Both the position numbers and the translations under genes were made by a program. Shown piece by piece: positions 5,253-28,168 of a stretch of DNA of 64,000 nucleotides. How positions within the stretch are numbered: the first letter of the stretch is position 1; every line of letters starts with the position of its first letter. The notes under the pieces were generated by a model. It made no database searches and was not told the origin of the DNA. It saw nothing but the letters and a program-made list of their open reading frames with translations. The stretch lies in assembly GCA_000002445.1 (NCBI GenBank), contig CP000069.1, positions 480,001 through 544,000 on the forward strand, in the 5' to 3' direction. This DNA is from Trypanosoma brucei (Eukaryota).

Positions 5253-7652
5253 TAAAAAATGCAAACAACGATATTATATGTAAAGATATGCTGCTTGTAG
5301 GAGCAGTTGAGCCAATAGGTATAGACTTGCGATCTTTGCTTCTGTCCTTTCACCTTCTTCCGGCGGATGTGGCACGGTAATTTGTTAACGTGAATAATCC
5401 CGCTAGTAGTGTTTTACGTGACCCCATATAGTTTATTTTTGAATGCTTTAATTAGATAATTTCTTTTTTTTTTTTCAGGGAATCGACTTTGCGTGTCTAA
5501 CTCACGTTCATGGTCATCTGACCTTCCTTGGTTTGGCCGAATTCCATTACTGGACGACGTGATCACCCCACCATTTGGATAAGAGTGTGCATCTCTACCT
5601 TTTCCCTTCCGTGTCGTTTACATTTCCTCTTCATGTTGTTCGTCAGGGCCTCTACTGATGGTTGGAAATAGGGGCAACATGATCGGGCTGCGGCGTAAGG
5701 GAGAGCAAAGAAGCAAGGGAGAGTGCAAACCTTACATTGCCACGGCATATTTTTCTGTACTCGTCCCCGAGTTGTATTTGTATTGTAGAGTGTTGAGATA
5801 TCCTCGGCAGGGGAGACCGGCGGTTGCGGCTCCAGTTTCCCATAAAAACAGCGTAAAAGAAAAAGAGGTGATTGGGACCCATTTCATTGTGATGAGCACA
5901 TCAAACTTTGACGTTTCAGTGGTGGACCGCTGTTGAACCAGTTTGGGGGCAACATTTTGCCTGAGGTTGTCCAAACATGAACGGGCAAAGAATGGCTTCA
6001 CAAGCTCAAGGTTCCTAGTTGTGCCACTTTAACGCCCTGCTTCCTGATTTGAATGTTGTTATGAACCACACGCGGGGTGTTATGCATGGGAGCTCTGACC
6101 ACGAGGTGACAGGGCCGAGCTGCGTGTTCTCGCCGAGGTGCCGCATCCACGGGTGTCAACACACGAAACTAACGTTTGAACAACGGAAAGACGGAGTAGA
6201 CGCTGTAAATGCGGTGAGCACATCAAACAAATACGCTCCCGTTGTGGGACTTATTCCAGCAGTAGGAATAAGCACCAGGATAAAGGTACAATGAAAAGTA
6301 TGGATGATGGGACTCTCCTGGTATCAATGTTGGGTCCAAAGACCATCCAATGCCCAACCAAACACACTGAACAACTTGCACTCACGAAACACGCGCGGCA
6401 ACAAGGACGGACACTAGGAAAGCGACGCAACAATATGAAGATAGAGCGCGAGATTTTTTTTAGTGGATTTACCGCTTTGCTCATTCGTCAAGGTCCTTGG
6501 AGAATAGTGTGAGGTGGAAGGCCTCGTGCAGACATGATTGCCACTTCACAGAAACATGGAAAAATTCATTTGAGAGGTGTTTGTTCTAAAGGATGTAGAA
6601 TCGGAGGCGCTGTCTCCCTTTCCCTTGCCGTGCAGATACCCAAACAACAAGGGGTGAAAGTTCCCGTCGACCGAAGCCACGACACTCAAGATGGCACACC
6701 AAAAGATGGCGAGATGCTGTTTCTGGGAGTGCAAATGGGCATGTCGAACCGCTGCGCCCAGTGCCAAAATAAAACAATCGACTAGGGTTAAAGCGGCGGC
6801 AAATGGAAAATGTAACGCACCGGGCCGTAGGTCACTAACCAACTGAAGTAAAGGCTCGAAGGGGATCCTGCCGCGCCGCGAACTGTCAAAAAAACGGAGA
6901 CCAAAAACATTCCACAAACAGCAGAATCCCGGAAACCTCAATACTATCAGCACGAAGTACCTCGCACTCTCCATATTAAGTCGTGCCCATACCAACCGAG
7001 CCCCAAAGACAACAGCATCGCAGCCGCTACACAAGTTTCCATTTTCAATCTTCCTCCTTCCTCTGACAAATGCGGTCGCCAACGAGACACGTAGCGCCAC
7101 GTTCCACATCATCTCATAGCTTCCTAATTTGCACTATACAAAAGGACAAAAAAAAGAGGAAAGATATTCACACAACAAAGCGCACTCAGTACCCATCCTC
7201 CCTCTAATGTTAGTTTCCCAACCAATATACTGCACATCATATGCGCAGTAAACGTGAGCTAATATATATGGATATCTGGTGACCGCAACTGGCGGTTGCA
7301 ACAATAGCCAATACGGTGCACATAAATTTTATGAGTTCTTACGAACAAAGTTATTCCATCAACAATATGAAACACAAGATGATATATAAACACACAAGAC
7401 AAACAAACCCCATCTCTGCCAAATGCACTTTTACATTTCTGCGGGTGAGCCATTATTGGAGTCCCGTGGCAGTAAACACTATTACAAACATTATTCGGGA
7501 AAGCTTTGAAATAAGATATATAAAATAAGGAAATCAGTAACACAACACATTTGAATGCTTACATTAGTTTATAGAATATTGATGCGTATGATAGCGTTGC
7601 GGCAAACAGTTTACATTGCAATATGCTTTTGAATCGTTCCTTATTATGATAG
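5253..7652. other. Convergent strand-switch region between the plus-strand gene ending at 5252 and the minus-strand polycistronic unit whose most distal gene ends at 7653.
   Basis: Gene orientation flips here and only short or low-confidence ORFs lie between. In trypanosomatids this is where Pol II transcription terminates. Confidence 0.55.
6546..7112 (-). CDS. Hypothetical small membrane protein, 188 aa, with hydrophobic segments. It abuts the left boundary of the tandem array.
   Basis: Double ATG confirmed at 7107-7112. Hydrophobic stretches include FVLIVLRFPGFCCLWNVFGL and LAIFWCAILSVVASV. No recognisable domain. It could be a remnant created at the array edge. Confidence 0.3.
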   Translation of the reverse strand: MMWNVALRVSLATAFVRGRRKIENGNLCSGCDAVVFGARLVWARLNMESARYFVLIVLRFPGFCCLWNVFGLRFFDSSRRGRIPFEPLLQLVSDLRPGALHFPFAAALTLVDCFILALGAAVRHAHLHSQKQHLAIFWCAILSVVASVDGNFHPLLFGYLHGKGKGDSASDSTSFRTNTSQMNFSMFL

Positions 7653-8708
7653 TCAGATAAAACAGAGGGATACTGATAGTAACGTAATTTTGAGTGAGGG
7701 AAATGATGCAATATTCTGTTTTTGTGTTTGTGTGGGTTGAGCATCGGAATCCTTTCGTGCTGCAGTTTGGGGTGCTGTTCTCGAGGGTTGCGCGCCTTCA
7801 GCTCCAGCTCCAGATTCCTTTAATGCTTTTACTTCCTCTTCATTTTTCGCTTTACCGTAAGTTCCCTTTAACTTTTTAACTTTCTCTCTCAACTTTTGAA
7901 GAGCTGCATCTCTTTTATTCATGTGACCCATCGCCTGATTCAACTGCTCAACCCACGGCTTTGAAGCAAGTGGATCAGGTTCCTCCTCAACTCTTGGCGG
8001 TGGGGGAACGCCGTGTGGTGGGAACGGAGGTTGTGGTGGTGCTGGTGGCGGCTGTGGAGATCCGTTGTTTTGGCCATCTGAATACCAATTTCGCAAATCC
8101 TCCAAGTCCTGTTTTATAGCCTTAACAGTAACCTCAACGCTACCAGATCCTACTGTACACCTACCTTTAAGTTCCTTCCATAACTGCAGACGGTCTTCCG
8201 GTGTTTGATGCTCCCTCTGATTTTGAGCAGTTCCCGCAACAAAGCAGCTTTCAGTGGCTCCACTTGCAGAGCTGCAAAGGCATACAATTTCTTTCGGTAT
8301 TGTTGTTGAACGGCTTGTTTCATTGCAGGGTTGGTTTTCCCCACGGGATCCAAAAGTTTTGTCCGCATTCTCGGTTTCGATGTCATCCCCATACGCTGCT
8401 TTCCGAAACGCTGTCCTGGCGCTATTTTCATGACTCTGCACTTCGTCTTCTAACTCTTTAACTTTATCCACCTCTGTTTTCAAAGCCGCTGAATCCCTGG
8501 CACCTTTATTAAACCACTGATAATTACTATCATCTTTTAACTTATCAATGTAATTTTCTTTCGCTCCCTTTTCCGCCTTCGTGAAGAGTCCACACAAAAG
8601 ATCAAATCCCTTCCCGTGCTTCCTGTAGTCTATCACGTTATCGTCTCCAGCCGTTACCAACGTTACCGACACTCCCACAACGACCACTTGTACAATTGCT
8701 TGCCACAT
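7653..8708 (-). CDS. Surface-protein family copy 1, 351 aa. It has a signal peptide, a conserved-Cys helical domain, a Pro-rich hinge, and an invariant C-terminal tail with a GPI-anchor-like signal.
   Basis: ATG confirmed at 8706-8708. N-terminus MWQAIVQVVVVGVSVTLVTAG. Pro tract PQPPPAPPQPPFPPHGVPPPP. C-terminus ...QKQNIASFPSLKITLLSVSLCFI is a hydrophobic tail after small residues. Paralogous to copies 2-5. Confidence 0.8.
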   Translation of the reverse strand: MWQAIVQVVVVGVSVTLVTAGDDNVIDYRKHGKGFDLLCGLFTKAEKGAKENYIDKLKDDSNYQWFNKGARDSAALKTEVDKVKELEDEVQSHENSARTAFRKAAYGDDIETENADKTFGSRGENQPCNETSRSTTIPKEIVCLCSSASGATESCFVAGTAQNQREHQTPEDRLQLWKELKGRCTVGSGSVEVTVKAIKQDLEDLRNWYSDGQNNGSPQPPPAPPQPPFPPHGVPPPPRVEEEPDPLASKPWVEQLNQAMGHMNKRDAALQKLREKVKKLKGTYGKAKNEEEVKALKESGAGAEGAQPSRTAPQTAARKDSDAQPTQTQKQNIASFPSLKITLLSVSLCFI

Positions 8709-10368
8709 TCCTGTGATTCTTCATTATGCACGACAAAGCAAGAAACAAAAAACAGAATTCACATTAAACACAACAGTAATATCAAATAAATGTTGTCTAT
8801 CATGACATGCGCATGTATTATCCCACAGAGCAGTTATTGACTTTCAACCATCGGCGCAAAATGATATATCTTCAAAGGCAGAGCAAACAAACTAACATAA
8901 CATCCAACAGGCCATCTCAACAAGCTCACTATACACGAGGATAGTAAATTCGTCAAATCACTTTACAGATGCCATCGTCGTGATTTCCATTAAACTTTCT
9001 GAATTCCATGTCCCTCTCTCTCTCTCTGAAAGGAATTTGCTTAAAGCATAACATCTAATTCCCCAAAAATGAGTTACACATCCCACATCAAGTCTTTCAC
9101 CCGCCTTACCCTGGTGTATTTCAATCACTCAACTTCTGACAATTCCTATATTCATATTCTTTTCGTTACACTTCCTTAAAATCCTTCCAGACAACCAAGC
9201 ACATCACATTGTTTTATCTTTACATCACTATTAAATGAACAGCAAAAAAAAAATGTACACATCTCCAACACACATGCCGAGTAAACTTCTTGACACCTGA
9301 GGCCGCTCCCACTCCAATCTCGATGGCCTTAACATCAATAACACTCTTGACTAACACTAATATTATTGTGTGATAAAAGAATTGGAAGGATACATTCCCT
9401 AACATGATACCGAAAATTACTGAAACACAAATGTGTAAAGAGTCTAGGAATGGATATACAAAAGGTGGTGTTTAGTAAGAGAAGGGCAATTAACTGCCAC
9501 CCGGAGTGTCTATTTCGTTTAACCTCATCCCGTATATTGTCAACAATACAAAGTCTTATAAAACACACCACCAGTTGTTCTCCAATAAATATACGTTATA
9601 CATGCCAATATCACAAACACTGCAACATCCTCTTTCTTCAACACTTCAAATACGTAACTCATATATCACTTGCTAAAGGTCTTAGTACCATATCCATGCC
9701 TCACTGAAGGGTTTGTGCCGTAACCCAATTAAATGTTGCTTCCTCTCCTCCTTCCATTTCCTCACAATAGGATACGCAGAGCTGCAACTTTGTAATATGT
9801 GCGCAGTTGATGGGGACTTCAGCCGTTATCACTTTAAATTGCAAATGGAAATTCTGAAACAATTCCAATACTCCCTCATGAATACCAACTGTTGCGTGTG
9901 TGTCTCCCATATACCGGCAGTTGCCATTACTGCAATGTTATGCTCAATGAGGATCTTTTTAATATCAAGTGTTAACGGCAACTATTTTATTGTTCATGTC
10001 AGGCTCATATTCATGTAAGTGAAATGGGTGAAACTGTTCTTTTCCTTACTTTGCATTATATAAATAAGAGGAAATAAGGGATGCTTGTTAGAGGCACGCA
10101 ACAGACACATACACATATGAGAGTTTCCATCCAACAATACATACATACCCTTTAAATAGTCCACCAACTGGAGGATGACACCAGCATGTCAGTGAGGGAA
10201 GCAGTATGTCTAGGAATAACATAAAAGACACGCGTGAAGGAATTTACATATTTGTTGCCTTGCTTTGCCTGCTGCGAATACCATATCACCTCCATCAGTA
10301 AAGTTACGGAATTCGGTAAACTTCCATGAATGCACATAAGCAACTGATACACACACACTTTTCCCTTC

Positions 10369-10983
10369 CTATTCCTCTCCTGCACAACTCACATGTTCAC
10401 TTGACGCACTGTCATCCGCTGCAGCAAGTAACTGTTGTCTTCCAGGTGGTTTCTCTCCAGTCAATGCACCACAGAAGCTTACAGTTACTGGCAAAACGGG
10501 TCTGCCCACATCATCAAGAGGAACTGCCTCAAGTTTCTCTAGCAGTGAGAGATCATCAATGGCACGTCCAAACACAACTTGCTTGAAATCAAGAGATGGA
10601 GAAGGACCAAGTGTAATGCCAAATACGGAGCCACTTGTGTGAGGACCCTCAGAGATCATTGTGAGGAGCCCACGTTCCGTGTGTCGGTGACGGTATCCTT
10701 CATCCGCTATTGGTGTGCCAGTGGAGGAGAGGTTAAAGGAATCCAATTCACCCAACACAATGATATTATTGTTGTGATCCACATGATGCACTTGTGTGCC
10801 AAGGTAATCCAATTTCACACCCGTGTTGGTGTCAATCCCACATGACCCAGTGATTAATGCCCTGAAGTTTTCTACGGTTTGTGGCACTACATCGTCAAAG
10901 AGCTCAAATACCAGTCGTCCGCTGAGAACGTCATCAATAGACATATCCAGGAAGGCACGGCAGGAGTTCTGTTCCTCCTTCAT
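10369..10983 (-). CDS. Cyclophilin-like protein, copy 1 (cyclophilin-type PPIase fold, divergent). It is 204 aa from the first ATG; the ORF track extends it to 11034 with an apparent GTG.
   Basis: It aligns to the cyclophilin A core: RLVFELFDDVVPQTVENFRALITG matches [23 protein letters not shown], and FKQVVFGRAIDDLSLLEKLEAV matches [22 protein letters not shown]. Several catalytic positions (Arg55, Gln63, Asn102, Trp121, His126 equivalents) appear substituted. ATG at 10981-10983 checked; the codon at 11032-11034 is cac, i.e. GTG in sense. Confidence 0.7.
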   Translation of the reverse strand: MKEEQNSCRAFLDMSIDDVLSGRLVFELFDDVVPQTVENFRALITGSCGIDTNTGVKLDYLGTQVHHVDHNNNIIVLGELDSFNLSSTGTPIADEGYRHRHTERGLLTMISEGPHTSGSVFGITLGPSPSLDFKQVVFGRAIDDLSLLEKLEAVPLDDVGRPVLPVTVSFCGALTGEKPPGRQQLLAAADDSASSEHVSCAGEE

Positions 10984-11581
10984 GCGATGACTCCGCTGGT
11001 AATTTTCCCATTCCTTTAAGCGGTGCTGTCTCACATAATCTCATAATTTCCTAGTTTGCACTTTACAAAAGGACAAAAAAAAAAGTAAATATATTGACAC
11101 AACGAAGCACACTCCGTACCCATCCTCCCTCTATTGTTAGTTTCCCAACCAATATACTGCACATTATATGCACAGTAAACGTAAGCTAAAATATATAGAT
11201 ATCTGGTAACCGCAACTGGCGGTTGTAACACTAGTCAATACGGTGCACATAAATTTTATACGAGTTCTTACGAACAAAGTTATTCCATCAACAATATGAA
11301 ACACAAAATGATATATAAACACACAAGACAAACAAACCCCATCTCTGCCAAATGCACTTTTACATTTCTACGGGTGAGCCATTATTGGAGTCCCGTGGCA
11401 GTAAACACTATTACAAACATTATTGGGGGAAGCTTTGGAATAGGATATATAAGACAAGGAAATCAGTAACACAACACATTTGAATGCTTACATTAATTTA
11501 TAGAATATTGATGCGTATGATAACGTTGCGGCAAACAGTTTACATTGCAATATGCTTTTGAATCGTATTTCATTATGATAG

Positions 11582-14251: not shown

Positions 14252-14866
14252 CTATTCCTCTCCTGCACAACTCACATGTTCACTTGACGCACTGTCATCC
14301 GCTGCAGCAGGTACCTGTTGTCTTCCAGGTGGTTTCTCTCCAGTCAATGCACCACAGAAGCTTACAGTTACTGGCAAAACGGGTCTGTCCACATCATCAA
14401 GAGGAACTGCCTCAAGTTTCTCTAGCAGTGAGAGATCATCAATGGCACGTCCAAACACAACTTGCTTGAAATCAAGAGATGGAGAAGGACCAAGTGTAAT
14501 GCCAAATACGGAGCCACTTGTGTGAGGACCCTCAGAGATCATTGTGAGAAGCCCACGTTCCGTGTGTCGGTGACGGTATCCTTCATCCGCTATTGGTGTG
14601 CCAGTGGAGGAGAGGTTAAAGGAATCCAATTCACCCAACACAATGATATTATTGTTGTGATCCACATGATGCACTTGTGTGCCAAGGTAATCCAATTTCA
14701 CACCCGTGTTGGTGTCAATCCCACATGACCCAGTGATTAATGCCCTGAAGTTTTCTACGGTTTGTGGCACTACATCGTCAAAGAGCTCAAATACCAGTCG
14801 TCCGCTGAGAACGTCATCGATGGACATGTCCAGGAAGGCACGGCAGGAGTTCTGTTCCTCCTTCAT
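14252..14866 (-). CDS. Cyclophilin-like protein, copy 2, 204 aa.
   Basis: ATG confirmed at 14864-14866 (MKEEQNSC...). It is near-identical to the other copies, with DDVDRP in place of DDVGRP. An upstream in-frame stop comes from a c-to-a change (ttttacc versus ttttccc). Confidence 0.7.
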   Translation of the reverse strand: MKEEQNSCRAFLDMSIDDVLSGRLVFELFDDVVPQTVENFRALITGSCGIDTNTGVKLDYLGTQVHHVDHNNNIIVLGELDSFNLSSTGTPIADEGYRHRHTERGLLTMISEGPHTSGSVFGITLGPSPSLDFKQVVFGRAIDDLSLLEKLEAVPLDDVDRPVLPVTVSFCGALTGEKPPGRQQVPAAADDSASSEHVSCAGEE

Positions 14867-15466
14867 GCGATGACTCCGCTGGTAATTTTACCATTCCTTT
14901 AAGCGGTGCTGTCTCACATTATTTCATAATTTCCTAATTTGCACTCTACAGCAGGACAAAAAAAAAAAAGAGGAAATATATTGACACAGCAAAGCACACT
15001 CAGTACCCATCCTCCCTCTATTGTTAGTCTCCACACCAATATATTGCCCATTATATGCACAGGAAACGTAAGCTAAAATATATATAGATATCCGGTAACC
15101 GCAACTGGCGGTTGCAACAGTAGCCAACACGGTACACATAAATGTTTTAAGTTCTTACGAACAAAGTTATTCCATCAATAATATGAAACACAAAATGGCA
15201 TAAACACACAAGACAAACAAACCCCATCTCTGCCAAATGCACTTTTACATTTCTGTGGGTGAGCCATTATTGGAGTCCCGTGGCAGTAAACACTATTACA
15301 AACATTATTCGGAGAAGCTTTGAAATAAGATATATAAGACAAGGAAATCAGTAACACAACACATTTGAATGCTTACATTAGTTTATAGAATATTGATGCG
15401 TATGATAGCGTTGCGGCAAACAGTTTACATTGCAATATGCTTTTGAATCGTTCCTTATTATGATAG

Positions 15467-16504
15467 TCAGATAAAACAGAGGGATACTGATAGTAACGTA
15501 ATTTTGAGTGAGGGAAATGATGCAATATTCTGTTTTTGTGTTTGTGTTTGTGTGGGTTGAGGATCGGAATCCTTTCGTGCTGCAGTTTGGGGTGCTGTTC
15601 TCGAGGGTTGCACACCTTCAGCTCCAGCTCCAGATTCCTTTAATGCCTTTACTTCCTCTTCATTTTTCGCTCTACCGTAAGTTCCCTTCAGCCTTTTAAC
15701 TTTCTCCTTCAAGTTTTCCAGCGCTGCATCTCTCTTATTCATATGGCTCATCGCCTCATCTAACCGCTTAACCCATGGCTTAGAAGCAAGAGGATCAGGC
15801 CTTTCAGGTATTTGTAGTGGTGAACTGTCTGGTGGTGGTGGTGATGGTGGTGGTGGGGGTGGTGGGGGTGGTGGGGAATCAACTTCCTGGTCTTCTGAAT
15901 ACAATCCTCGCAAATTCTCCAAGTCTTTTCTTATGGCTTCAATAGTAACCTCAACTCTTTCGCTATCCTTTGTACACCTGCTCTTAACTCCATACCATGC
16001 CTGTAGACCGTCTTCCGCTGTCCCGCTTTGGTCATGGCCATAACTTCGAGCCTTCCCGCTCCCAAGGCAGTAGTCGGTGGCCTCGCCAACAGAGCTGCAA
16101 ATGCAGACAATTTCTTTTGGTATTGTTGGCCACTCACTAGCTGGGTTACAGGGCTGGTTGCCCCCATGGGATCCAAAAGTTTTGTCCGCATCCTCTTTTT
16201 CAATGTTTTCCCCATACGCTGCTTTCCGAAACGCTGTCCTGGCATTATTTTCATGACTCTGCACTTCGCTTTCTAACTCTTTCACCTTTTCCGTCTCCGT
16301 TTTCAGAGTCGATGAATCTCTAGCATGTTTCAACTTACCGATGTAGTTTTCTCCTTTTGCTCCCTCTGCCGCCTTCGTGAAGAGCGAGCACAAAATATCA
16401 AACATCTTCTCGTTTTTGCCATGGTTCCTCCAGCTGTCCTCGCCGACAGTAACCTGCGATACCAACACTCCCACCATGACCACTTGCATAAATGATCGCC
16501 ACAT
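15467..16504 (-). CDS. Surface-protein family copy 3, 345 aa, the most divergent N-terminal and central region.
   Basis: N-terminus MWRSFMQVVMVGVLVSQVTVG. Longest Pro tract, SPPPPPPPPPPSPPPPDSSP, encoded by a (GGT/GGG)n run on the plus strand at ~15830-15880. Shares the invariant C-terminal tail. Confidence 0.8.
   Translation of the reverse strand: MWRSFMQVVMVGVLVSQVTVGEDSWRNHGKNEKMFDILCSLFTKAAEGAKGENYIGKLKHARDSSTLKTETEKVKELESEVQSHENNARTAFRKAAYGENIEKEDADKTFGSHGGNQPCNPASEWPTIPKEIVCICSSVGEATDYCLGSGKARSYGHDQSGTAEDGLQAWYGVKSRCTKDSERVEVTIEAIRKDLENLRGLYSEDQEVDSPPPPPPPPPPSPPPPDSSPLQIPERPDPLASKPWVKRLDEAMSHMNKRDAALENLKEKVKRLKGTYGRAKNEEEVKALKESGAGAEGVQPSRTAPQTAARKDSDPQPTQTQTQKQNIASFPSLKITLLSVSLCFI
15828..15880. 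repeat. (GGT/GGG)n trinucleotide-like tract encoding the poly-Pro hinge of surface-protein copy 3
   Basis: ggtggtggtggtgatggtggtggtgggggtggtgggggtggtgggg on the plus strand encodes PPPPPPPPPPSPPPP on the minus strand. Shorter, different-length equivalents lie in the other four copies at ~8000-8050, 11930-11960, 19680-19720 and 23560-23600. Confidence 0.85.
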
Positions 16505-18097: not shown

Positions 18098-18712
18098 CTA
18101 TTCCTCTCCTGCACAACTCACATGTTCACTTGACGCACTGTCATCCGCTGCAGCAAGTAACTGTTGTCTTCCAGGTGGTTTCTCTCCAGTCAATGCACCA
18201 CAGAAGCTTACAGTTACTGGCAAAACGGGTCTGCCCACATCATCAAGAGGAACTGCCTCAAGTTTCTCTAGCAGTGAGAGATCATCAATGGCACGTCCAA
18301 ACACAACTTGCTTGAAATCAAGAGATGGAGAAGGACCAAGTGTAATGCCAAATACGGAGCCACTTGTGTGAGGACCCTCAGAGATCATTGTGAGGAGCCC
18401 ACGTTCCGTGTGTCGGTGACGGTATCCTTCATCCGCTATTGGTGTGCCAGTGGAGGAGAGGTTAAAGGAATCCAATTCACCCAACACAATGATATTATTG
18501 TTGTGATCCACATGATGCACTTGTGTGCCAAGGTAATCCAATTTCACACCCGTGTTGGTGTCAATCCCACATGACCCAGTGATTAATGCCCTGAAGTTTT
18601 CTACGGTTTGTGGCACTACATCGTCAAAGAGCTCAAATACCAGTCGTCCGCTGAGAACGTCATCAATAGACATATCCAGGAAGGCACGGCAGGAGTTCTG
18701 TTCCTCCTTCAT
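18098..18712 (-). CDS. Cyclophilin-like protein, copy 3, 204 aa from the first ATG. The ORF track extends it to 18763.
   Basis: The translated protein is identical to copy 1. Confidence 0.7.
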   Translation of the reverse strand: MKEEQNSCRAFLDMSIDDVLSGRLVFELFDDVVPQTVENFRALITGSCGIDTNTGVKLDYLGTQVHHVDHNNNIIVLGELDSFNLSSTGTPIADEGYRHRHTERGLLTMISEGPHTSGSVFGITLGPSPSLDFKQVVFGRAIDDLSLLEKLEAVPLDDVGRPVLPVTVSFCGALTGEKPPGRQQLLAAADDSASSEHVSCAGEE

Positions 18713-19316
18713 GCGATGACTCCGCTGGTAATTTTCCCATTCCTTTAAGCGGTGCTGTCTCACATTATTTCATAATTTCCTAATTTGCACTCTACAGCAG
18801 GACAAAAAAAAAAAAGAGGAAATATATTGACACAGCAAAGCACACTCAGTACCCATCCTCCCTCTATTGTTAGTCTCCACACCAATATATTGCCCATTAT
18901 ATGCACAGGAAACGTAAGCTAAAATATATATAGATATCCGGTAACCGCAACTGGCGGTTGTAACACTAGTCAATACGGTGCACATAAATTTTATACGAGT
19001 TCTTACGAACAAAGTTATTCCATCAACAATATGAAACACAAAATGATATATAAACACACAAGACAAACAAACCCCATCTCTGCCAAATGCACTTTTACAT
19101 TTCTACGGGTGAGCCATTATTGGAGTCCCGTGGCAGTAAACACTATTACAAACATTATTGGGGGAAGCTTTGGAATAGGATATATAAGACAAGGAAATCA
19201 GTAACACAACACATTTGAATGCTTACATTAATTTATAGAATATTGATGCGTATGATAACGTTGCGGCAAACAGTTTACATTGCAATATGCTTTTGAATCG
19301 TTCCTTATTATGATAG

Positions 19317-20360
19317 TCAGATAAAACAGAGGGATACTGATAGTAACGTAATTTTGAGTGAGGGGGATGATGCAATATTCTGTTTTTGTGTTTGTGTGGG
19401 TTGAGCATCGGAATCCTTTCGTGCTGCAGTTTGGGGTGCTGTTCTCGAGGGTTGCGCACCTTCAGCTCCAGCTCCAGATTCCTTTAATGCCTTTACTTCC
19501 TCTTCATTTTTCGCTTTACCGTAAGTTCCCCTCAACTTTTCGACTTGCTCTCTCAACTTTTGAAGAGCCTCATCTCTTCCCTTCATGTGGTCTGTTGCCT
19601 CATTCAAGTTCTTAACCCACGGCTTAGAAGTAAATATATCAGGCTCCTCCTCAGGCATTGGTGGACTGCCAGGTGGGAACGGAGGTGGCGGTGGTGGCGG
19701 TGGAGGTTCTTGGCCTTTTGAGTCGTCTGAATACAAACCCCTCAAACCCTCCAAGTCCTTTTCTATAGCTTCGACAGTAACCTCGGCACTGCTGCTGGCA
19801 CTCGTACATTTTCCCTTAACTCCATTCCATGCCTGTAGACGCTGTTCAGCCGTGGTATCGTCGTGATTTCGGGCATTCTCGCTCCCACCGAAGCAGCTTT
19901 CAGTGGCACCTTGTGTGGGGCTGCAACTACAGATGATACTGTTAGGTATCGTTGACCATCGGTTTGTTTCGTCGCATGGATTGCCTACTGTATGGTGTCC
20001 AAAAGTTTTGTCCGCGTCCTCTTCTTCAATGTTATCCCCATAGGCTGCTTTCCGAAACGCTGTCTTGGCGCCACTTTCATGGCTCTGCACTTTGTTTTCT
20101 AACTCTTTAACTTTATCCACCTCCGCTTTTAAAGCTGGTGAATCCCTGGCATCTTTATTAAACCACTGATAATCTTCGGTTTCTTTTAGCTTATCGAGGT
20201 GACTTTTTTCTTTCGCTCCCTTTTCTGCCTTCGTGAAGAGTGAGCACAAGAGATCAAATCCCTTCTTGTCTTTCTCGTGGTCAATCCAGTCATTCTTTCC
20301 CATTGCAACTCCCGTTACCAACACTCCCACCATGACCACTTTCATAATTACTCTCCACAT
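19317..20360 (-). CDS. Surface-protein family copy 4, 347 aa.
   Basis: N-terminus MWRVIMKVVMVGVLVTGVAMGKNDW. Pro tract EPPPPPPPPPFPPGSPPMPEEEPD. It differs from copy 5 at only ~6 residues. Confidence 0.8.
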   Translation of the reverse strand: MWRVIMKVVMVGVLVTGVAMGKNDWIDHEKDKKGFDLLCSLFTKAEKGAKEKSHLDKLKETEDYQWFNKDARDSPALKAEVDKVKELENKVQSHESGAKTAFRKAAYGDNIEEEDADKTFGHHTVGNPCDETNRWSTIPNSIICSCSPTQGATESCFGGSENARNHDDTTAEQRLQAWNGVKGKCTSASSSAEVTVEAIEKDLEGLRGLYSDDSKGQEPPPPPPPPPFPPGSPPMPEEEPDIFTSKPWVKNLNEATDHMKGRDEALQKLREQVEKLRGTYGKAKNEEEVKALKESGAGAEGAQPSRTAPQTAARKDSDAQPTQTQKQNIASSPSLKITLLSVSLCFI

Positions 20361-21987
20361 AGATGTATACCTTTATTATTCGTAATAACAACACAGTAAA
20401 AAATAATAGAACATTAATATTAAACACTACAGTAATATCAAATCAATGTTGTCTATCATAACATTGCGTATATTATCCCACAGAGCAGTTATTACTGTTT
20501 AACTCTCAGCAGAAAGTGATATGCCATTCATAGGCAGAGCATGCAAACTAACATAACATCCAACAAGCCATCTCCACAAGCTCACTATACACGAGGATAG
20601 TAAATTCACGAAGTCACTTTACAGATGCCATCGTCGTGATTTCCCTCAATCTTTTTTTATTCCTTACTGCTCTAACTCTCTGAAAGGAATTTCCCTCATA
20701 CAGTAGATTCAGCTGGGTCAAAAAGAGGCACACATCCCACATCAAGTCTTTCACCTGCCTTATCCTGGTGTATTTCAACCACACACCTTCTAGGAATATT
20801 CATATATAATTATAGTCACACTTTCTCCATGTCCTCTCAGACACAAGAACAAATCATGATCCTCTACTTTTACATCACTATTAAATGAACAGCAAAAAGA
20901 AAATACACACAATATATTCATTGATATATGGTTCCCACTGCTGGTTCCGTGACCGTAATGTCAGTGACACATTTTACGAACACAAATACTATGATAAAAG
21001 AATTGGAAGGACACATTTCCTAACATGACACCGAAAATTACTGAAACACAAATGTGTAAAGTGTCTATGGATGGAAATGCAAAATATGTGGTGTTTAGTA
21101 AGGGAAGGATTATTAGCTGCCACCCGGAGTGTATATTTCTTTACACCTCATTTCGTATCTTGTCAACAATACAAAGTCTTATAAAACACACCACCAGTTG
21201 TTCTCCAATAAATATACGTTATACATGCCAATATCACAGACACTGCAACATCCTCTTTCTTCAACACTTCAAATACGTAACTCATATATCACTTGCTAAA
21301 GGTCTTAGTACCATATCCATGCCTCACTGAAGGGTTTGTGCCGTAACCCAATTAAATGTTGCTTCCTCTCCTCCTTCCATTTCCTCACAATATGATACGC
21401 AGAGCTGCAACTTTGTAATATGTGCGCAGTTGATGGGGACTTCAGTGGTTATCACTTTAAATTGCAAATGGAAATTCTGAAACAGTTCCAATACTCCCTC
21501 ATGAATACCAACTAGTGTGTGTCTCCCATATACTAGCAGTTGTCATTACTGCAATGTTATGCTCAATGAGGATCTTTTTATTATCAAGTGTTAGCGCCAA
21601 CTATTTTATTGTTCATGTCAGGCTCATATTCATGTAAGTGAAATGGGTGAAACTGTTCTTTTCCTTACTTTGCATTATATAAATAAGAGGAAATAAGGAA
21701 TGCTTGTTAGAGGCACTCAACAGACACATACACATATGAGAGTTTCCATCCAACAATACATACATATCCTTTAAATAGTCCACCAACTGGAGGATGACAC
21801 CAGCAGGTCAGTGAGGGAAGCAGTATGTCTAGGAATAATATAAAAGACACGTGTGACAAAATTTACATATTTGTTGCCTTGCTTTGCCTGCTGCGAATAC
21901 CATATCACCTCCATCAGTAAAGTTACGGAATTCGGTAAACTTCCATGAATGCACATAAGCAACTGATACACACACACTTTTCCCTTC

Positions 21988-22602
21988 CTATTCCTCTCCT
22001 GCACAACTCACATGTTCACTTGACGCACTGTCATCCGCTGCAGCAAGTAACTGTTGTCTTCCAGGTGGTTTCTCTCCAGTCAATGCACCACAGAAGCTTA
22101 CAGTTACTGGCAAAACGGGTCTGCCCACATCATCAAGAGGAACTGCCTCAAGTTTCTCTAGCAGTGAGAGATCATCAATGGCACGTCCAAACACAACTTG
22201 CTTGAAATCAAGAGATGGAGAAGGACCAAGTGTAATGCCAAATACGGAGCCACTTGTGTGAGGACCCTCAGAGATCATTGTGAGGAGCCCACGTTCCGTG
22301 TGTCGGTGACGGTATCCTTCATCCGCTATTGGTGTGCCAGTGGAGGAGAGGTTAAAGGAATCCAATTCACCCAACACAATGATATTATTGTTGTGATCCA
22401 CATGATGCACTTGTGTGCCAAGGTAATCCAATTTCACACCCGTGTTGGTGTCAATCCCACATGACCCAGTGATTAATGCCCTGAAGTTTTCTACGGTTTG
22501 TGGCACTACATCGTCAAAGAGCTCAAATACCAGTCGTCCGCTGAGAACGTCATCAATAGACATATCCAGGAAGGCACGGCAGGAGTTCTGTTCCTCCTTC
22601 AT
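21988..22602 (-). CDS. Cyclophilin-like protein, copy 4, 204 aa from the first ATG. The ORF track extends it to 22653.
   Basis: Identical to copies 1 and 3. Confidence 0.7.
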   Translation of the reverse strand: MKEEQNSCRAFLDMSIDDVLSGRLVFELFDDVVPQTVENFRALITGSCGIDTNTGVKLDYLGTQVHHVDHNNNIIVLGELDSFNLSSTGTPIADEGYRHRHTERGLLTMISEGPHTSGSVFGITLGPSPSLDFKQVVFGRAIDDLSLLEKLEAVPLDDVGRPVLPVTVSFCGALTGEKPPGRQQLLAAADDSASSEHVSCAGEE

Positions 22603-23202
22603 GCGATGACTCCGCTGGTAATTTTCCCATTCCTTTAAGCGGTGCTGTCTCACATAATCTCATAATTTCCTAGTTTGCACTTTACAAAAGGACAAAAAAA
22701 AAAGTAAATATATTGACACAACGAAGCACACTCCGTACCCATCCTCCCTCTATTGTTAGTTTCCCAACCAATATACTGCACATTATATGCACAGTAAACG
22801 TAAGCTAAAATATATATAGATATCTGGTAACCGCAACTGGCGGTTGTAACACTAGTCAATACGGTGCACATAAATTTTATACGAGTTCTTACGAACAAAG
22901 TTATTCCATCAACAATATGAAACACAAAATGATATATAAACACACAAGACAAACAAACCCCATCTCTGCCAAATGCACTTTTACATTTCTACGGGTGAGC
23001 CATTATTGGAGTCCCGTGGCAGTAAACACTATTACAAACATTATTGGGGGAAGCTTTGGAATAGGATATATAAGACAAGGAAATCAGTAACACAACACAT
23101 TTGAATGCTTACATTAATTTATAGAATATTGATGCGTATGATAACGTTGCGGCAAACAGTTTACATTGCAATATGCTTTTGAATCGTATTTCATTATGAT
23201 AG

Positions 23203-24246
23203 TCAGATAAAACAGAGGGATACTGACAGTAACGTAATTTTGAGTGAGGGGGATGATGCAATATTCTGTTTTTGTGTTTGTGTGGGTTGAGCATCGGAAT
23301 CCTTTCGTGCTGCAGTTTGGGGTGCTGTTCTCGAGGGTTGCGCACCTTCAGCTCCAGCTCCAGATTCCTTTAATGCCTTTACTTCCTCTTCATTTTTCGC
23401 TTTACCGTAAGTTCCCTTTAACTTTTTGACTTGCTCTCTCAACTTTTGAAGAGCCTCATCTCTTCCCTTCATGTGGTCTGTTGCCTCATTCAAGTTCTTA
23501 ACCCATGGCTTAGAAGCAAATTGATCAGGCTTCTCCTCAGGCATTGGTGGACTGCCAGGTGGGAACGGAGGTGGCGGTGGTGGCGGTGGAGGTTCTTGGC
23601 CTTTTGAGTCGTCTGAATACAAAGCCCTCAAACCCTCCAAGTCCTTTTCTATAGCTTCGACAGTAACCTCGGCACTGCTGCTGGCACTCGTACATTTTCC
23701 CTTAACTCCATTCCATGCCTGTAGACGCTGTTCAGCCGTGGTATCGTCGTGATTTCGGGCATTCTCGCTCCCACCGAAGCAGCTTTCAGTGGCACCTTGT
23801 GTGGGGCTGCAACTACAGATGATACTGTTAGGTATCGTTGACCATCGGTTTGTTTCGTCGCATGGATTGCCTACTGTATGGTGTCCAAAAGTTTTGTCCG
23901 CGTCCTCTTCTTCAATGTTATCCCCATAGGCTGCTTTCCGAAACGCTGTCTTGGCGCCACTTTCATGGCTCTGCACTTTGTTTTCTAACTCTTTAACTTT
24001 ATCCACCTCCGCTTTTAAAGCTGGTGAATCCCTGGCATCTTTATTAAACCACTGATAATCTTCGGTTTCTTTTAGCTTATCGAGGTGACTTTTTTCTTTC
24101 GCTCCCTTTTCTGCCTTCGTGAAGAGTGAGCACAAGAGATCAAATCCCTTCTTGTCTTTCTCGTGGTCAATCCAGTCATTCTTTCCCATTGCAACTCCCG
24201 TTACCAACACTCCCACCATGACCACTTTCATAATTACTCTCCACAT
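23203..24246 (-). CDS. Surface-protein family copy 5, 347 aa.
   Basis: Near-identical to copy 4, with substitutions clustered around EEKPDQFASK and EQVKKLKG. These are states that copy 1 also carries. Confidence 0.8.
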   Translation of the reverse strand: MWRVIMKVVMVGVLVTGVAMGKNDWIDHEKDKKGFDLLCSLFTKAEKGAKEKSHLDKLKETEDYQWFNKDARDSPALKAEVDKVKELENKVQSHESGAKTAFRKAAYGDNIEEEDADKTFGHHTVGNPCDETNRWSTIPNSIICSCSPTQGATESCFGGSENARNHDDTTAEQRLQAWNGVKGKCTSASSSAEVTVEAIEKDLEGLRALYSDDSKGQEPPPPPPPPPFPPGSPPMPEEKPDQFASKPWVKNLNEATDHMKGRDEALQKLREQVKKLKGTYGKAKNEEEVKALKESGAGAEGAQPSRTAPQTAARKDSDAQPTQTQKQNIASSPSLKITLLSVSLCFI

Positions 24247-25873
24247 AGATGTATACCTTTATTATTCGTAATAACAACACAGTAAAAAATAATAGAACAT
24301 TAATATTAAACACTACAGTAATATCAAATCAATGTTGTCTATCATAACATTGCGTATATTATCCCACAGAGCAGTTATTACTGTTTAACTCTCAGCAGAA
24401 AGTGATATGCCATTCATAGGCAGAGCATGCAAACTAACATAACATCCAACAAGCCATCTCCACAAGCTCACTATACACGAGGATAGTAAATTCACGAAGT
24501 CACTTTACAGATGCCATCGTCGTGATTTCCCTCAATCTTTTTTTATTCCTTACTGCTCTAACTCTCTGAAAGGAATTTCCCTCATACAGTAGATTCAGCT
24601 GGGTCAAAAAGAGGCACACATCCCACATCAAGTCTTTCACCTGCCTTATCCTGGTGTATTTCAACCACACACCTTCTAGGAATATTCATATATAATTATA
24701 GTCACACTTTCTCCATGTCCTCTCAGACACAAGAACAAATCATGATCCTCTACTTTTACATCACTATTAAATGAACAGCAAAAAGAAAATACACACAATA
24801 TATTCATTGATATATGGTTCCCACTGCTGGTTCCGTGACCGTAATGTCAGTGACACATTTTACGAACACAAATACTATGATAAAAGAATTGGAAGGACAC
24901 ATTTCCTAACATGACACCGAAAATTACTGAAACACAAATGTGTAAAGTGTCTATGGATGGAAATGCAAAATATGTGGTGTTTAGTAAGGGAAGGATTATT
25001 AGCTGCCACCCGGAGTGTATATTTCTTTACACCTCATTTCGTATCTTGTCAACAATACAAAGTCTTATAAAACACACCACCAGTTGTTCTCCAATAAATA
25101 TACGTTATACATGCCAATATCACAGACACTGCAACATCCTCTTTCTTCAACACTTCAAATACGTAACTCATATATCACTTGCTAAAGGTCTTAGTACCAT
25201 ATCCATGCCTCACTGAAGGGTTTGTGCCGTAACCCAATTAAATGTTGCTTCCTCTCCTCCTTCCATTTCCTCACAATATGATACGCAGAGCTGCAACTTT
25301 GTAATATGTGCGCAGTTGATGGGGACTTCAGTGGTTATCACTTTAAATTGCAAATGGAAATTCTGAAACAGTTCCAATACTCCCTCATGAATACCAACTA
25401 GTGTGTGTCTCCCATATACCGGCAGTTGCCATTACTGCAATGTTATGCTCAATGAGGATCTTTTTATTATCAAGTGTTAGCGCCAACTATTTTATTGTTC
25501 ATGTCAGGCTCATATTCATGTAAGTGAAATGGGTGAAACTGTTCTTTTCCTTACTTTGCATTATATAAATAAGAGGAAATAAGGGATGCTTGTTAGAGGC
25601 ACGCAACAGACACATACACATATGAGAGTTTCCATCCAACAATACATACATATCCTTTAAATAGTCCACCAACTGGAGGATGACACCAGCAGGTCAGTGA
25701 GGGAAGCAGTATGTCTAGGAATAATATAAAAGACACGTGTGACAAAATTTACATATTTGTTGCCTTGCTTTGCCTGCTGCGAATACCATATCACCTCCAT
25801 CAGTAAAGTTACGGAATTCGGTAAACTTCCATGAATGCACATAAGCAACTGATACACACACACTTTTCCCTTC

Positions 25874-26656
25874 CTATTCCTCTCCTGCACAACTCACATG
25901 TTCACTTGACGCACTGTCATCCGCTGCAGCAGGTACCTGTTGTCTTCCAGGTGGTTTCTCTCCAGTCAATGCACCACAGAAGCTTACAGTTACTGGCAAA
26001 ACGGGTCTGCCCACATCATCAAGAGGAACTGCCTCAAGTTTCTCTAGCAGTGAGAGATCATCAATAGCACGTCCAAACACAACTTGCTTGAAATCAAGAG
26101 ATGGAGAAGGACCAAGTGTAATGCCAAATACGGAGCCACTTGTGTGAGGACCCTCAGAGATCATTGTGAGAAGCCCACGTTCCGTGTGTCGGTGACGGTA
26201 TCCTTCATCCGCTATTGGTGTGCCAGTGGAGGAGAGGTTAAAGGAATCCAATTCACCCAACACAATGATATTATTGTTGTGATCCACATGATGCACTTGT
26301 GTGCCAAGGTAATCCAATTTCACACCCGTGTTGGTGTCAATCCCACATGACCCAGTGATTAATGCCCTGAAGTTTTCTACGGTTCGCGGCACTACATCGT
26401 CAAAGAGTTCAAATACCAGTCGTCCGCTGAGAACGTCATCAATGGACATATCCAGGAAGGCACGGCAGGAGTTCTGTTCCTCCTTCATGCGATGACTCCG
26501 CTGGTAATTTTCCCATTCTTTTAAACGGCGCTCCTCCACATCGTCGTAACGACTCTGAAGTGTCGCAGAGTCTTCATCATTTTCTGGTCGTTGTAACCTC
26601 GAATCTCCCTTTTTCCTGCGGGAGTGCCGTACACCTTCTAGTTTTGTCGTTGACAT
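25874..26656 (-). CDS. Cyclophilin-like protein, copy 5, the full-length form: 260 aa from the ATG at 26656. The ORF-track start at 26692 is an apparent TTG.
   Basis: It has a unique ~56-aa N-terminal extension (MSTTKLEGVRHSRRKKGDS...RYDDVEERRLKEWENYQRSHR) that the internal copies lack. Homology to the internal copies begins at RLKEWENY, which is the array junction. ATG checked at 26654-26656. Confidence 0.65.
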   Translation of the reverse strand: MSTTKLEGVRHSRRKKGDSRLQRPENDEDSATLQSRYDDVEERRLKEWENYQRSHRMKEEQNSCRAFLDMSIDDVLSGRLVFELFDDVVPRTVENFRALITGSCGIDTNTGVKLDYLGTQVHHVDHNNNIIVLGELDSFNLSSTGTPIADEGYRHRHTERGLLTMISEGPHTSGSVFGITLGPSPSLDFKQVVFGRAIDDLSLLEKLEAVPLDDVGRPVLPVTVSFCGALTGEKPPGRQQVPAAADDSASSEHVSCAGEE

Positions 26657-26898
26657 CAAAACAATCACTAGGCCTATTCCGCGCTGAAGCAAGATGTCGA
26701 ATAAGTGAATGCTATCTCAATCCTCTGAAGTTTTAAAATGAAAGCCGAAGAAAGAGGAGAAATAAAGGATGGAAGAGTGAGGGATGCTGGGCGTATTGGT
26801 AGTGTAACCATAAACACTATAGGTGATGTGAAAACAATGATTCCCTGAAGCCTCTTGGGTGGGGGTAAGGGAAGATAAAGGAGGAGAAAGAAGATCAG

Positions 26899-27588: not shown

Positions 27589-28168
27589 CTTCCCCCCTTA
27601 GTTTGGGAACGTTTGTCACGATAAATGTTTCCCTCGCCACTTGCTTTGTGTATATTTGGTGGCACCGTTGCCTCTGTCCTCAATCAGTTCGCTATTTCAC
27701 TCCCTTGGTCCCACAACTGTACCTCAAATACTGCTGCTGTGTATGTATTCCCCTTTTCTTCTTGTGCTACTGCCCCCCTGCACGTGTATGCGCACCTTTG
27801 TTCGGTATGGTCAATGGCAAGAGAAGAGAATGGTATCCCAAACAAAAACAAATGTATGTGCGAATACATATGCGTCCATACACTCGTGTAAGGTGCGCAG
27901 CGTGGCGTAGGCTCAAAGAAACCCCTCCGTTCACATGTGTGGGCGCACAAATGCCCCTGCATGGAAAAGTTGAGAGTTCACAACCGGTCACAACTGATCG
28001 TCTTCACCTTCTTCATTCCCTCCTTTCTCCACTCCAATGGAGCAGCTACGCAACAGCAACAATATGAGCGGGGAAAACATCCTTCCGCTTGTCAATACCT
28101 CCACACCCAATCCACAAACACTAACTAGCACCCGAGGTCACTTGATGTTTTCAACAGTTGTGTCACTT

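What the first reader, a model, noticed from the sequence alone, without database searches (positions are those of the whole stretch)
7100..26530. Five-unit 3.9-kb tandem array co-amplifying a GPI-anchored surface-protein gene with a cyclophilin-like gene
Each unit holds two unrelated genes on the same strand: a ~345-aa surface protein (secreted, Cys-containing helical domain, Pro hinge, disordered tail, C-terminal GPI-type signal) and a 204-aa divergent cyclophilin. The pair has been duplicated five times head-to-tail. A surface protein and a peptidyl-prolyl-isomerase-like protein co-amplified as one unit is unusual; the surface protein carries an 8-15 residue poly-Pro stretch, which is a natural cyclophilin substrate or binding motif. 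I could not assign the surface protein to a named family from memory (it is not obviously VSG, ISG65/75, BARP, procyclin or PAG). It may be a poorly characterised or undescribed trypanosome surface family.
Basis: partly seen in the sequence, partly recalled or inferred. Interest (0 to 1): 0.8.

Follow-up and report, generated by a model that had tools for sequence, protein, structure and literature searches.

The report
Known trypanosome Fam1/cyclophilin tandem array
The five-unit repeat is real, but it is the already published Trypanosoma brucei chromosome 6 "Fam1" array of VSG-derived GPI-anchored surface proteins, and the cyclophilin-like gene in each unit looks like a duplication passenger, truncated in four of the five copies.

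Summary
Window 7105-26532 is 19,428 bp, exactly five head-to-tail units of 3.85-3.92 kb on the minus strand. Each unit carries a 341-351 aa surface-protein gene and a cyclophilin-like gene.

The window is T. brucei brucei TREU927 chromosome 6, and the proteins match XP_845253-XP_845262 at 100% identity. The array has been described before:
- Jackson 2010, Table 1: 3865-bp unit, 2 genes, 5 copies.
- Jackson 2013: "Fam1", a b-type-VSG-derived family with signal peptide and GPI anchor, found in the flagellar pocket and endosomes.
- Savage 2012 and Carnes 2015 also cover it.

The proposed functional pairing of cyclophilin and poly-proline is not supported:
- The repeat boundary cuts the cyclophilin 5' coding region, so four of five copies are truncated.
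- The protein has no signal peptide.
- It lacks most CypA catalytic residues.
- It is an ancient kinetoplastid gene that predates Fam1.

One modest addition: a roughly 1.7-kb block (upstream DNA plus N-terminal domain) is mosaic and deeply diverged (dS 0.4-0.9, dN/dS about 0.4-0.5), inside flanks mostly 95-100% identical.

The parts
7105..26532 (-). Whole tandem array: five units of 3.85-3.92 kb. It corresponds to Tb927.6.1310-.1390 plus the truncated part of the next gene.
   Evidence: blastn boundaries, unit lengths and alignment, repeat families. Published as a 3865-bp, 2-gene, 5-copy unit (PMC2854126) and as Tb927.6.1310-.1390 (PMC4288722).
7653..8708 (-). Fam1 copy F5, 351 aa (XP_845253). 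Probably Tb927.6.1310: it has the lowest coordinate and is the only copy with two N-x-S/T sequons. It is the last gene before the convergent strand switch.
   Evidence: Pfam VSG_B E 3.7e-11. The gene-ID mapping is my inference from accession order, from the chromosome orientation of the Tbg locus, and from the 'two predicted N-glycosylation sites' in PMC3605285.
11582..12607 (-). Fam1 copy F4, 341 aa (XP_845255). A mosaic: like F1/F2 at the N-terminus, like F3 in the middle, identical to F2 in the C-terminal part.
   Evidence: VSG_B E 5.2e-9.
15467..16504 (-). Fam1 copy F3, 345 aa (XP_845257). It has the longest Pro run (10).
   Evidence: VSG_B E 3.3e-12.
19317..20360 (-). Fam1 copy F2, 347 aa (XP_845259).
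   Evidence: VSG_B E 2e-8.
23203..24246 (-). Fam1 copy F1, 347 aa (XP_845261). Its N-terminal domain is nearly identical to that of F2.
25874..26656 (-). The only complete cyclophilin-like gene, 260 aa (XP_845262). It is the ortholog of kinetoplastid 'cyclophilin 9'. The array's upstream boundary (26532) lies inside its 5' coding region.
   Evidence: Pfam PF00160 E 2.3e-24.
21988..22602 (-). 5'-truncated cyclophilin copy (204 aa from the first ATG). Repeat junction at 22646/22647.
18098..18712 (-). 5'-truncated cyclophilin copy. Junction at 18756/18757.
14252..14866 (-). 5'-truncated cyclophilin copy. Junction at 14910/14911. It carries an in-frame TAA inside the remnant of the conserved KEWENY motif, upstream of its first ATG.
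10369..10983 (-). 5'-truncated cyclophilin copy. Junction at 11027/11028.
23413..25039 (-). Hypervariable mosaic block of unit 1; equivalent blocks exist in the other units. It runs from about 0.8 kb upstream of the Fam1 ATG to about codon 275. Mean pairwise divergence is 11-32% here, against 0-5% over most of the flanks and up to about 9% at the 3' end of the unit.
   Evidence: Sliding-window divergence, pairwise mosaic pattern, dS 0.4-0.87.
5253..7104 (.). Convergent strand-switch region between the plus-strand 310-aa gene and the minus-strand polycistron that ends with the array.
   Evidence: ORF strands. [quoted passage not shown] No tRNA genes here.

Best explanation
This is the published Fam1 locus of T. 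brucei brucei TREU927 chromosome 6.

The ancestral arrangement is still seen as a single copy in T. b. gambiense. It consists of a conserved kinetoplastid cyclophilin-like gene, followed by one VSG-derived GPI-anchored gene, at the 3' end of a housekeeping polycistron next to a convergent strand switch.

I infer the following history. A tandem duplication arose with one breakpoint inside the 5' coding region of the cyclophilin gene and the other about 550 bp downstream of the Fam1 stop codon. An 8-nt microhomology (GATGTGGA) is present at both breakpoints. Unequal crossing-over then expanded the unit to five copies.

On this reading the cyclophilin is a passenger. The four internal copies lack the first 40-odd codons, including half of a motif conserved across Kinetoplastida. 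Their near-identity is shared with 1.4 kb of adjoining non-coding DNA, so it reflects recent duplication or homogenisation and not selection on the protein.

The Fam1 protein is a shortened b-type VSG N-terminal domain with a three-helix-bundle fold. A Pro-rich segment replaces an internal Cys loop of the VSG domain. A roughly 50-residue low-complexity tail and a 17-residue-type GPI signal follow, and there is no VSG C-terminal domain.

Published data place tagged Tb927.6.1310 in the flagellar pocket and endosomes of bloodstream forms, with transcripts in salivary-gland, metacyclic and bloodstream stages.

Its most likely role (inferred, about 35% confidence) is as a low-abundance host-facing binding protein or receptor of mammal-infective stages, like other VSG-fold receptors. 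Host pressure would then maintain its variable domain as a recombining set of old haplotypes.
For: Identity of the locus:
- 100% identity to TREU927 proteins on a 1,618,915-bp contig.
- Array listed in PMC2854126 Table 1.
- Fam1 description and localisation in PMC3605285.
- GPI and signal-peptide predictions and stage transcripts in PMC3378594.
- Array absent from T. evansi and T. b. gambiense per PMC4288722. The single-copy T. b. gambiense locus was fetched as L002.

VSG origin of the surface protein:
- Pfam VSG_B above the gathering score in all copies, with no CTD hit.
- A profile search of 1.84e9 proteins returns only b-type VSGs, E 8e-8 to 8e-4.
- hhalign probability 98.6%, E 5.5e-16. The alignment spans the Pro-rich segment and includes the KPWV helix.
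- AF2 model of the mature region has pLDDT 72.5 and pTM 0.72.

Cyclophilin as passenger:
- The boundary at 26532 lies inside the cyclophilin coding sequence.
- The conserved N-terminal motif YQDVEERRLKEWENYQRSHR is split by the boundary.
- One internal copy has an in-frame stop in the remnant of that motif.
- Divergence is 0-3% across the cyclophilin and also across the adjoining non-coding DNA.
- There is no hydrophobic N-terminus.
- Orthologs occur across Trypanosoma, Leishmaniinae and Phytomonas.
Against: - The function of Fam1 is untested. The receptor idea rests only on fold, location and variability.
- Localisation comes from an over-expressed, tagged copy of one paralog.
- Expression of the other four Fam1 copies and of the truncated cyclophilin copies is not known to me. 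The truncated copies keep the whole cyclophilin-like domain, have a polypyrimidine tract with AG dinucleotides upstream, and could be expressed from Met57.
- The 8-nt microhomology could be coincidental.
- Copy number in a repeat of this kind can be mis-assembled.
Confidence: 0.85

Rival explanations
1. Functional two-gene module. The cyclophilin is co-amplified because it isomerises or binds the poly-Pro segment of the surface protein, so the dosage of the two must rise together.
For: Physical linkage in every unit. A Pro-rich segment is present in all Fam1 copies. The cyclophilin-like domain is intact in all five copies.
Against: - No signal peptide or hydrophobic segment in the cyclophilin: Kyte-Doolittle -1.47 over residues 1-21, and a maximum of 0.96 in any 19-residue window. 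Fam1 is a secretory, GPI-anchored protein.
- CypA R55, N102, F113, W121 and H126 are replaced by H, E, G, S and Q. The F60-Q63 segment is not alignable.
- The best solved relative is PPIL6, deposited as 'probable inactive'.
- Four copies are breakpoint-truncated.
- The gene predates Fam1 by the whole depth of Kinetoplastida.
- T. b. equiperdum has Fam1 without an adjacent cyclophilin in its assembly.
- From established knowledge: trypanosome polycistrons are not operons of functionally related genes.
Confidence: 0.03
2. Very recent duplication followed by rapid adaptive divergence of the surface protein. This is the reading offered in PMC2854126: copies multiplied very recently, and positive selection then drove 30-40% protein divergence.
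For: - Single copy in T. b. gambiense and T. evansi.
- Flanks and cyclophilin are about 97-100% identical between units.
- The protein N-terminal domains are only 55-73% identical.
Against: - Synonymous divergence in the N-terminal domain is 0.40-0.87, and dN/dS is only 0.37-0.50 in every pair.
- About 0.8 kb of non-coding DNA upstream of the ATG is also 11-24% diverged.
- The single copies of T. b. gambiense and T. b. equiperdum are two further distinct types, equally distant (dS 0.36-0.77).
- Relationships between copies switch along the block, for example F4 resembles F1 and then F3.

This pattern fits old haplotypes shuffled by recombination or gene conversion, with flanks homogenised, better than a post-duplication burst of amino-acid change.
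Confidence: 0.1
3. Assembly artefact or pseudo-array. The five units are a mis-assembled repeat, or the copies are unexpressed relics.
For: Tandem repeats of about 4 kb with 97-100% identical segments are hard to assemble. PMC2854126 itself warns that assembled copy numbers can be arbitrary. Transcript data exist only for Tb927.6.1310.
Against: - Four distinct N-terminal-domain types anchor the units unambiguously.
- All five Fam1 ORFs are intact, with six conserved Cys, a signal sequence and a GPI signal.
- dN/dS below 1 indicates purifying constraint.
Confidence: 0.03

Closest known systems
T. brucei Fam1 (cell-surface phylome, Jackson et al. 2013, PMC3605285; array in Jackson et al. 2010, PMC2854126)
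   Same: It is this locus. [quoted passage not shown]
   Different: Nothing differs in identity. My additions:
- The duplication breakpoint truncates four cyclophilin copies.
- The variable block includes non-coding DNA, with dS 0.4-0.9 and dN/dS about 0.4-0.5.
- The T. b. gambiense copy is positional, not sequence-orthologous, to Tb927.6.1310 in the N-terminal domain (65% identity).
- The '0.1-3.2% nucleotide divergence' quoted in PMC3605285 does not describe the N-terminal-domain block I measured.
Class B (b-type) variant surface glycoproteins, e.g. VSG615, mVSG1954, VSG3, VSG11
   Different: - About 195-265 residues instead of about 350 for the N-terminal domain. Only VSG_B profile positions ~126-281 match in Pfam.
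- An internal Cys loop is replaced by a Pro-rich stretch.
- No C-terminal domain (no PF10659).
- Chromosome-internal position in a housekeeping polycistron, not subtelomeric or in an expression site.
- Low-abundance flagellar-pocket and endosomal location, not a surface coat.
VSG-fold receptors and VSG-derived proteins of T. brucei (ESAG6/7 transferrin receptor, ESAG2, SRA, TgsGP, HpHbR, FHR, ISG65)
   Different: No ligand or function is known for Fam1. There is no significant sequence similarity to these proteins apart from the VSG_B link. I did not compare it directly with ESAG2, SRA or TgsGP sequences.
Kinetoplastid 'cyclophilin 9' orthologs and metazoan PPIL6 (cyclophilin-like, probably inactive)
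   Same: Orthologs at 48-79% identity across Trypanosoma, Leishmaniinae and Phytomonas, with the same conserved N-terminal motif. The best solved relative is PPIL6 (E 4e-28), found in axoneme structures.
   Different: The PPIL6 score is barely better than that of ordinary cyclophilins (1e-27), so orthology to PPIL6 is not shown. Four of the five TREU927 copies lack the N-terminal extension.

Membership tests
T. brucei Fam1 (Jackson 2013) | Polymorphic tandem array of five genes at a strand-switch region of T. b. brucei TREU927 chromosome 6 (Tb927.6.1310 and following) | tested here: met
   100% identity to TREU927 proteins XP_845253/55/57/59/61 on a 1,618,915-bp contig. Five copies lie next to a convergent strand switch. 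Text of PMC3605285 and PMC4288722.
T. brucei Fam1 (Jackson 2013) | Homology to the b-type VSG N-terminal domain, without the VSG C-terminal domain | tested here: met
T. brucei Fam1 (Jackson 2013) | Signal peptide and GPI-anchor signal | tested here: inconclusive
   No dedicated predictor was available. Crude hydropathy shows a hydrophobic N-terminus (KD 1.74 over residues 1-21) and a hydrophobic extreme C-terminus ending the protein (KD 1.97 over the last 12), with no cytoplasmic tail. BigPI, FragAnchor and a signal-peptide predictor are all positive for Tb927.6.1310 in PMC3378594. Biochemical proof of the anchor was not found.
Canonical variant surface glycoprotein (class B) | Full-length VSG_B N-terminal domain (about 350 residues) | tested here: not met
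   Only profile positions ~126-281 of 352 match. hhalign covers VSG columns 140-348 only. The mature protein before the tail is about 265 residues.
Canonical variant surface glycoprotein (class B) | VSG C-terminal domain (PF10659) | tested here: not met
   No hit in any copy at E <= 0.1. The VSGs retrieved as remote relatives do have it.
Canonical variant surface glycoprotein (class B) | Subtelomeric or expression-site location | tested here: not met
   The array sits at the end of a polycistron that includes a lysyl/aspartyl-type class II tRNA synthetase, an FAD-linked oxidase, a cyclin, a WD-repeat protein and a MATH protein.
Catalytically active cyclophilin-type PPIase | Cyclophilin-type domain (PF00160) | tested here: met
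   E 2e-25 over 158 of 159 profile positions, in both full and truncated copies.
Catalytically active cyclophilin-type PPIase | CypA active-site residues R55, F60, M61, Q63, N102, F113, W121, H126 | tested here: not met
The HMMER alignment to 5yb9 shows the same substitutions. Enzyme activity itself is not testable here.
Dedicated chaperone-client gene pair | The two genes co-occur and co-vary across genomes, and the products share a compartment | tested here: not met
   The cyclophilin is present throughout Kinetoplastida. Fam1 was found only in T. brucei-group genomes. The T. b. equiperdum locus has Fam1 without an adjacent cyclophilin. The cyclophilin lacks a signal peptide.

The most novel reading that the evidence does not exclude
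The ~1.7-kb Fam1 block (upstream region plus VSG-like domain) is a set of anciently diverged haplotypes that recombine and are kept by balancing, host-driven selection across the T. brucei group.

On this reading, TREU927 has stacked four of them in cis by unequal crossing-over. Fam1 would then be a chromosome-internal, low-copy, antigenically polymorphic VSG-derived receptor. It would not be a recently duplicated gene that diverged quickly, which is how it has been described.
Probability: 0.35. Interest if true: 0.45.

Novelty: already known. Interest (0 to 1): 0.15.

Why it matters
It matters little as a discovery. The array, its two-gene unit, its copy-number difference between subspecies, the VSG ancestry and the flagellar-pocket location of one product were published between 2007 and 2015.

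The value of this check is negative and clarifying:
- The attractive cyclophilin/poly-proline pairing is an accident of where a duplication breakpoint fell.
- The "divergent cyclophilin" copies are mostly truncated passengers.

The residual interest is that Fam1 still has no known function. Its variable domain also shows deep synonymous and non-coding divergence with mosaicism, between paralogs and between strains. If confirmed in population data, that would point to long-term balancing selection on a host-facing protein of the mammal-infective stages.

Tried and rejected
- TRF did not report the array because its maximum period is 500. The repeat finder and blastn were used instead.
- Sequence searches of the PDB with one Fam1 copy and with the family profile gave nothing significant. 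VSG615 appeared only at E 1.1.
- The full-length AF2 model was poor (pLDDT 48.7), and its Foldseek search was meaningless.
- The word-indexed homolog search with the family alignment found nothing beyond the six family clusters.
- Literature searches for the cyclophilin gene IDs (Tb927.6.1320/40/60/80/1400) and for Tb927.6.1330 returned nothing. Of the further IDs searched (Tb927.6.1350/70/90, Tb927.6.1300, Tbg972.6.1020/1030), only Tb927.6.1300 and Tbg972.6.1030 were found, in two already-known papers.
- A search for a trypanosomatid PPIL6 or radial-spoke link found nothing relevant, so the PPIL6 resemblance stays an untested lead.
- Bacterial promoter/terminator and tRNA scans of the strand-switch region were at chance level or empty, and are not applicable to trypanosomes.
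- I considered the 188-aa ORF at 6546-7112 as a sixth cyclophilin remnant and rejected it. It has no Pfam hit, and repeat homology stops at 7105.

Full report
**1. Observation**

The window contains a long minus-strand run of ORFs. Between about 7.1 and 26.5 kb there are five alternating pairs. Each pair is a 341-351 aa ORF and a cyclophilin-like ORF.

The repeat finder shows five in-register copies of every segment, with start-to-start spacing of 3826-3929 bp. blastn of the outer flanks against internal units fixes the limits at 7105 and 26532. That is 19,428 bp in five units of 3886, 3890, 3846, 3883 and 3923 bp.

**2. Identity**

The 345-aa protein is 100% identical to a 'hypothetical protein, conserved' of T. 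brucei brucei TREU927, on a contig of 1,618,915 bp. The ten genes are XP_845253 to XP_845262.

The literature already describes the locus:
- Jackson et al. 2010 list it for chromosome 6 (locus Tbg972.6.1030): a repeat unit of 3865 bp, 2 genes and 5 copies. The genes are 'PPIase cyclophilin-type isomerase' (distance 0.0068, no unique isoforms) and 'Hypothetical protein' (distance 0.1564, 4 unique isoforms). [quoted passage not shown]
- Jackson et al. 2013 name the family Fam1. [quoted passage not shown] T. b. gambiense has one copy. HA-tagged Tb927.6.1310 localised to the flagellar pocket and endosomes of bloodstream forms (PMC3605285).
- Savage et al. 2012 report BigPI, FragAnchor and signal-peptide predictions for Tb927.6.1310. 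They found transcripts highest in salivary-gland parasites, and also in bloodstream forms and metacyclics (PMC3378594).
- Carnes et al. 2015 note that the Tb927.6.1310-.1390 duplication is absent from T. evansi STIB805 and T. b. gambiense DAL972 (PMC4288722).
- Jackson 2007 lists a T. brucei-specific array, labelled Tb927.6.1300, in this gene-ID neighbourhood (PMC1855330).

**3. Independent tests of the surface protein**

- All copies hit Pfam VSG_B above the gathering score (34-47 bits against 25; E 2e-8 to 3e-12). None hits the VSG C-terminal domain.
- An exhaustive HMMER profile search of 1.84 billion representative proteins found, beyond the family itself, only five proteins at E 8e-8 to 8e-4. 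All five carry a VSG_B domain, and four are named T. brucei VSGs.
- Profile-profile comparison with those VSGs gives probability 98.6% and E 5.5e-16 over 195 columns.
- That alignment runs through the Pro-rich stretch. The helix after it (KPWV..LNEA..HM..RD.AL) aligns with the VSG helix around the invariant Trp (IPWVK...). The prolines therefore replace an internal Cys-containing loop of the VSG N-terminal domain. They do not form an inter-domain hinge.
- A full-length AF2 model was poor (pLDDT 48.7). A model of the mature region without signal peptide and tail reached pLDDT 72.5 and pTM 0.72.
- Foldseek found nothing significant with that model.
- Six cysteines are conserved in the ectodomain. 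Only the 351-aa copy has N-x-S/T sequons, and it has two. That matches the published description of Tb927.6.1310.

**4. The cyclophilin-like gene**

The upstream-most copy (25874-26656) encodes the 260-aa protein that T. b. gambiense also has.

Orthologs at 48-79% identity occur in T. vivax, T. congolense, T. grayi, T. cruzi, Leishmania, Leptomonas ('cyclophilin 9') and Phytomonas. All share an N-terminal motif, YQDVEERRLKEWENYQRSHR.

The array boundary at 26532 falls inside this motif:
- Internal copies begin at ...RLKEWENY, have no in-frame ATG before Met57, and give 204 aa.
- One internal copy has a TAA inside the remnant motif.
- All internal copies have out-of-frame ATGs within 61 nt upstream of Met57.

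The protein has no hydrophobic N-terminus.

Aligned with human CypA, R55, N102, F113, W121 and H126 are replaced by H, E, G, S and Q. The F60-Q63 segment is not conserved. The best solved relative is PPIL6, deposited as 'probable inactive', but it scores only marginally better than ordinary cyclophilins.

The near-identity of the cyclophilin copies (0-8 differences in 615 nt) is shared by about 1.4 kb of adjacent non-coding DNA (0-3% divergence). It therefore reflects recent duplication or homogenisation, not selection on the protein.

Both array ends carry GATGTGGA, a possible microhomology for the founding duplication (inference).

The T. b. equiperdum assembly has a Fam1 gene but lacks about 7.6 kb upstream, including the cyclophilin.

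**5. Pattern of variation**

Mean pairwise divergence along the unit:
- 0-3% over the cyclophilin and the following 1.4 kb.
- 11-32% from about 0.8 kb upstream of the Fam1 ATG to about codon 275.
- 2-5% through the Fam1 tail and proximal 3' region, rising to 8-10% in the last ~175 nt of the unit.

Within the N-terminal domain, dS is 0.40-0.87 and dN/dS is 0.37-0.50 for every pair except the near-identical F1/F2.

The single copies of T. b. gambiense and T. b. equiperdum are two further types. They are 60-69% identical in protein to all TREU927 copies, with dS of 0.36-0.77. The C-terminal tails differ by dS of 0.09 or less.

Relationships switch along the block. For example, unit 4 is 94-99% identical to unit 1 over most of the first ~300 nt of the CDS, and then 94% identical to unit 3. 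Units 3 and 5 are 91-96% identical in parts of the upstream non-coding region.

This fits old, recombining haplotypes inside homogenised flanks better than a recent duplication followed by a burst of amino-acid change. The published '0.1-3.2% nucleotide divergence' does not describe this block.

**6. Context**

The array ends a housekeeping polycistron: UPF0220, MATH, cyclin, WD-repeat protein, FAD-linked oxidase and a class II tRNA synthetase. It abuts a convergent strand switch. On the other side lies a plus-strand 310-aa gene for another putative surface protein.

**7. Verdict**

The feature is already known. Interest is low. The residual open questions are Fam1's function and the origin of its deep, mosaic variability.

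Noticed in passing
window 4320-5252 (+): A 310-aa ORF with a signal-like N-terminus and a hydrophobic C-terminus. It has no Pfam hit and no PDB sequence hit. Databases name it 'T. brucei spp.-specific protein' (Tbg) and 'BARP protein' (UniRef, T. equiperdum). No TREU927 entry appears in its protein cluster. It faces the Fam1 array across the convergent strand switch and may be another lineage-specific surface protein.
   Followed up: partly
L001 (T. b. equiperdum GCA_003543875.1, CM010677.1) 8761-9700, versus window ~24600-32256: The assembly is collinear with the window down to 32256 and then joins directly to the Fam1 upstream block. About 7.6 kb is missing, with no Ns at the join. The missing stretch holds part of the 302-aa gene, the MATH protein, UPF0220, the 229-aa gene and the cyclophilin. 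This could be a real deletion or a mis-assembly.
   Followed up: partly
window 14867-14910 (minus strand, upstream of cyclophilin copy 14252-14866): TGG TAA replaces TGG GAA in the remnant of the conserved KEWENY motif. This is an in-frame stop present in only this internal copy.
   Followed up: yes
window 7105-7112 and 26533-26540 region (array ends): The octamer GATGTGGA occurs at both array boundaries. It is a candidate microhomology for the founding duplication.
   Followed up: partly
L002 (T. b. gambiense FN554969.1) 10001-11062: The single Tbg Fam1 gene sits in the position of Tb927.6.1310 (flanks 93-98% identical). Its N-terminal domain is only 65% identical to that copy and is no closer to it than to the other paralogs. 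Its annotated start also has six extra residues (MKEERI).
   Followed up: yes
window 57710-57897: A 93-nt tandem repeat (2 copies, 95% matches) lies inside the minus-strand ORF 56815-57975. It was not examined.
   Followed up: no
window 6546-7112 (-): A 188-aa ORF just outside the array, in the strand-switch region. It has no Pfam hit and no repeat homology, and is probably spurious.
   Followed up: partly
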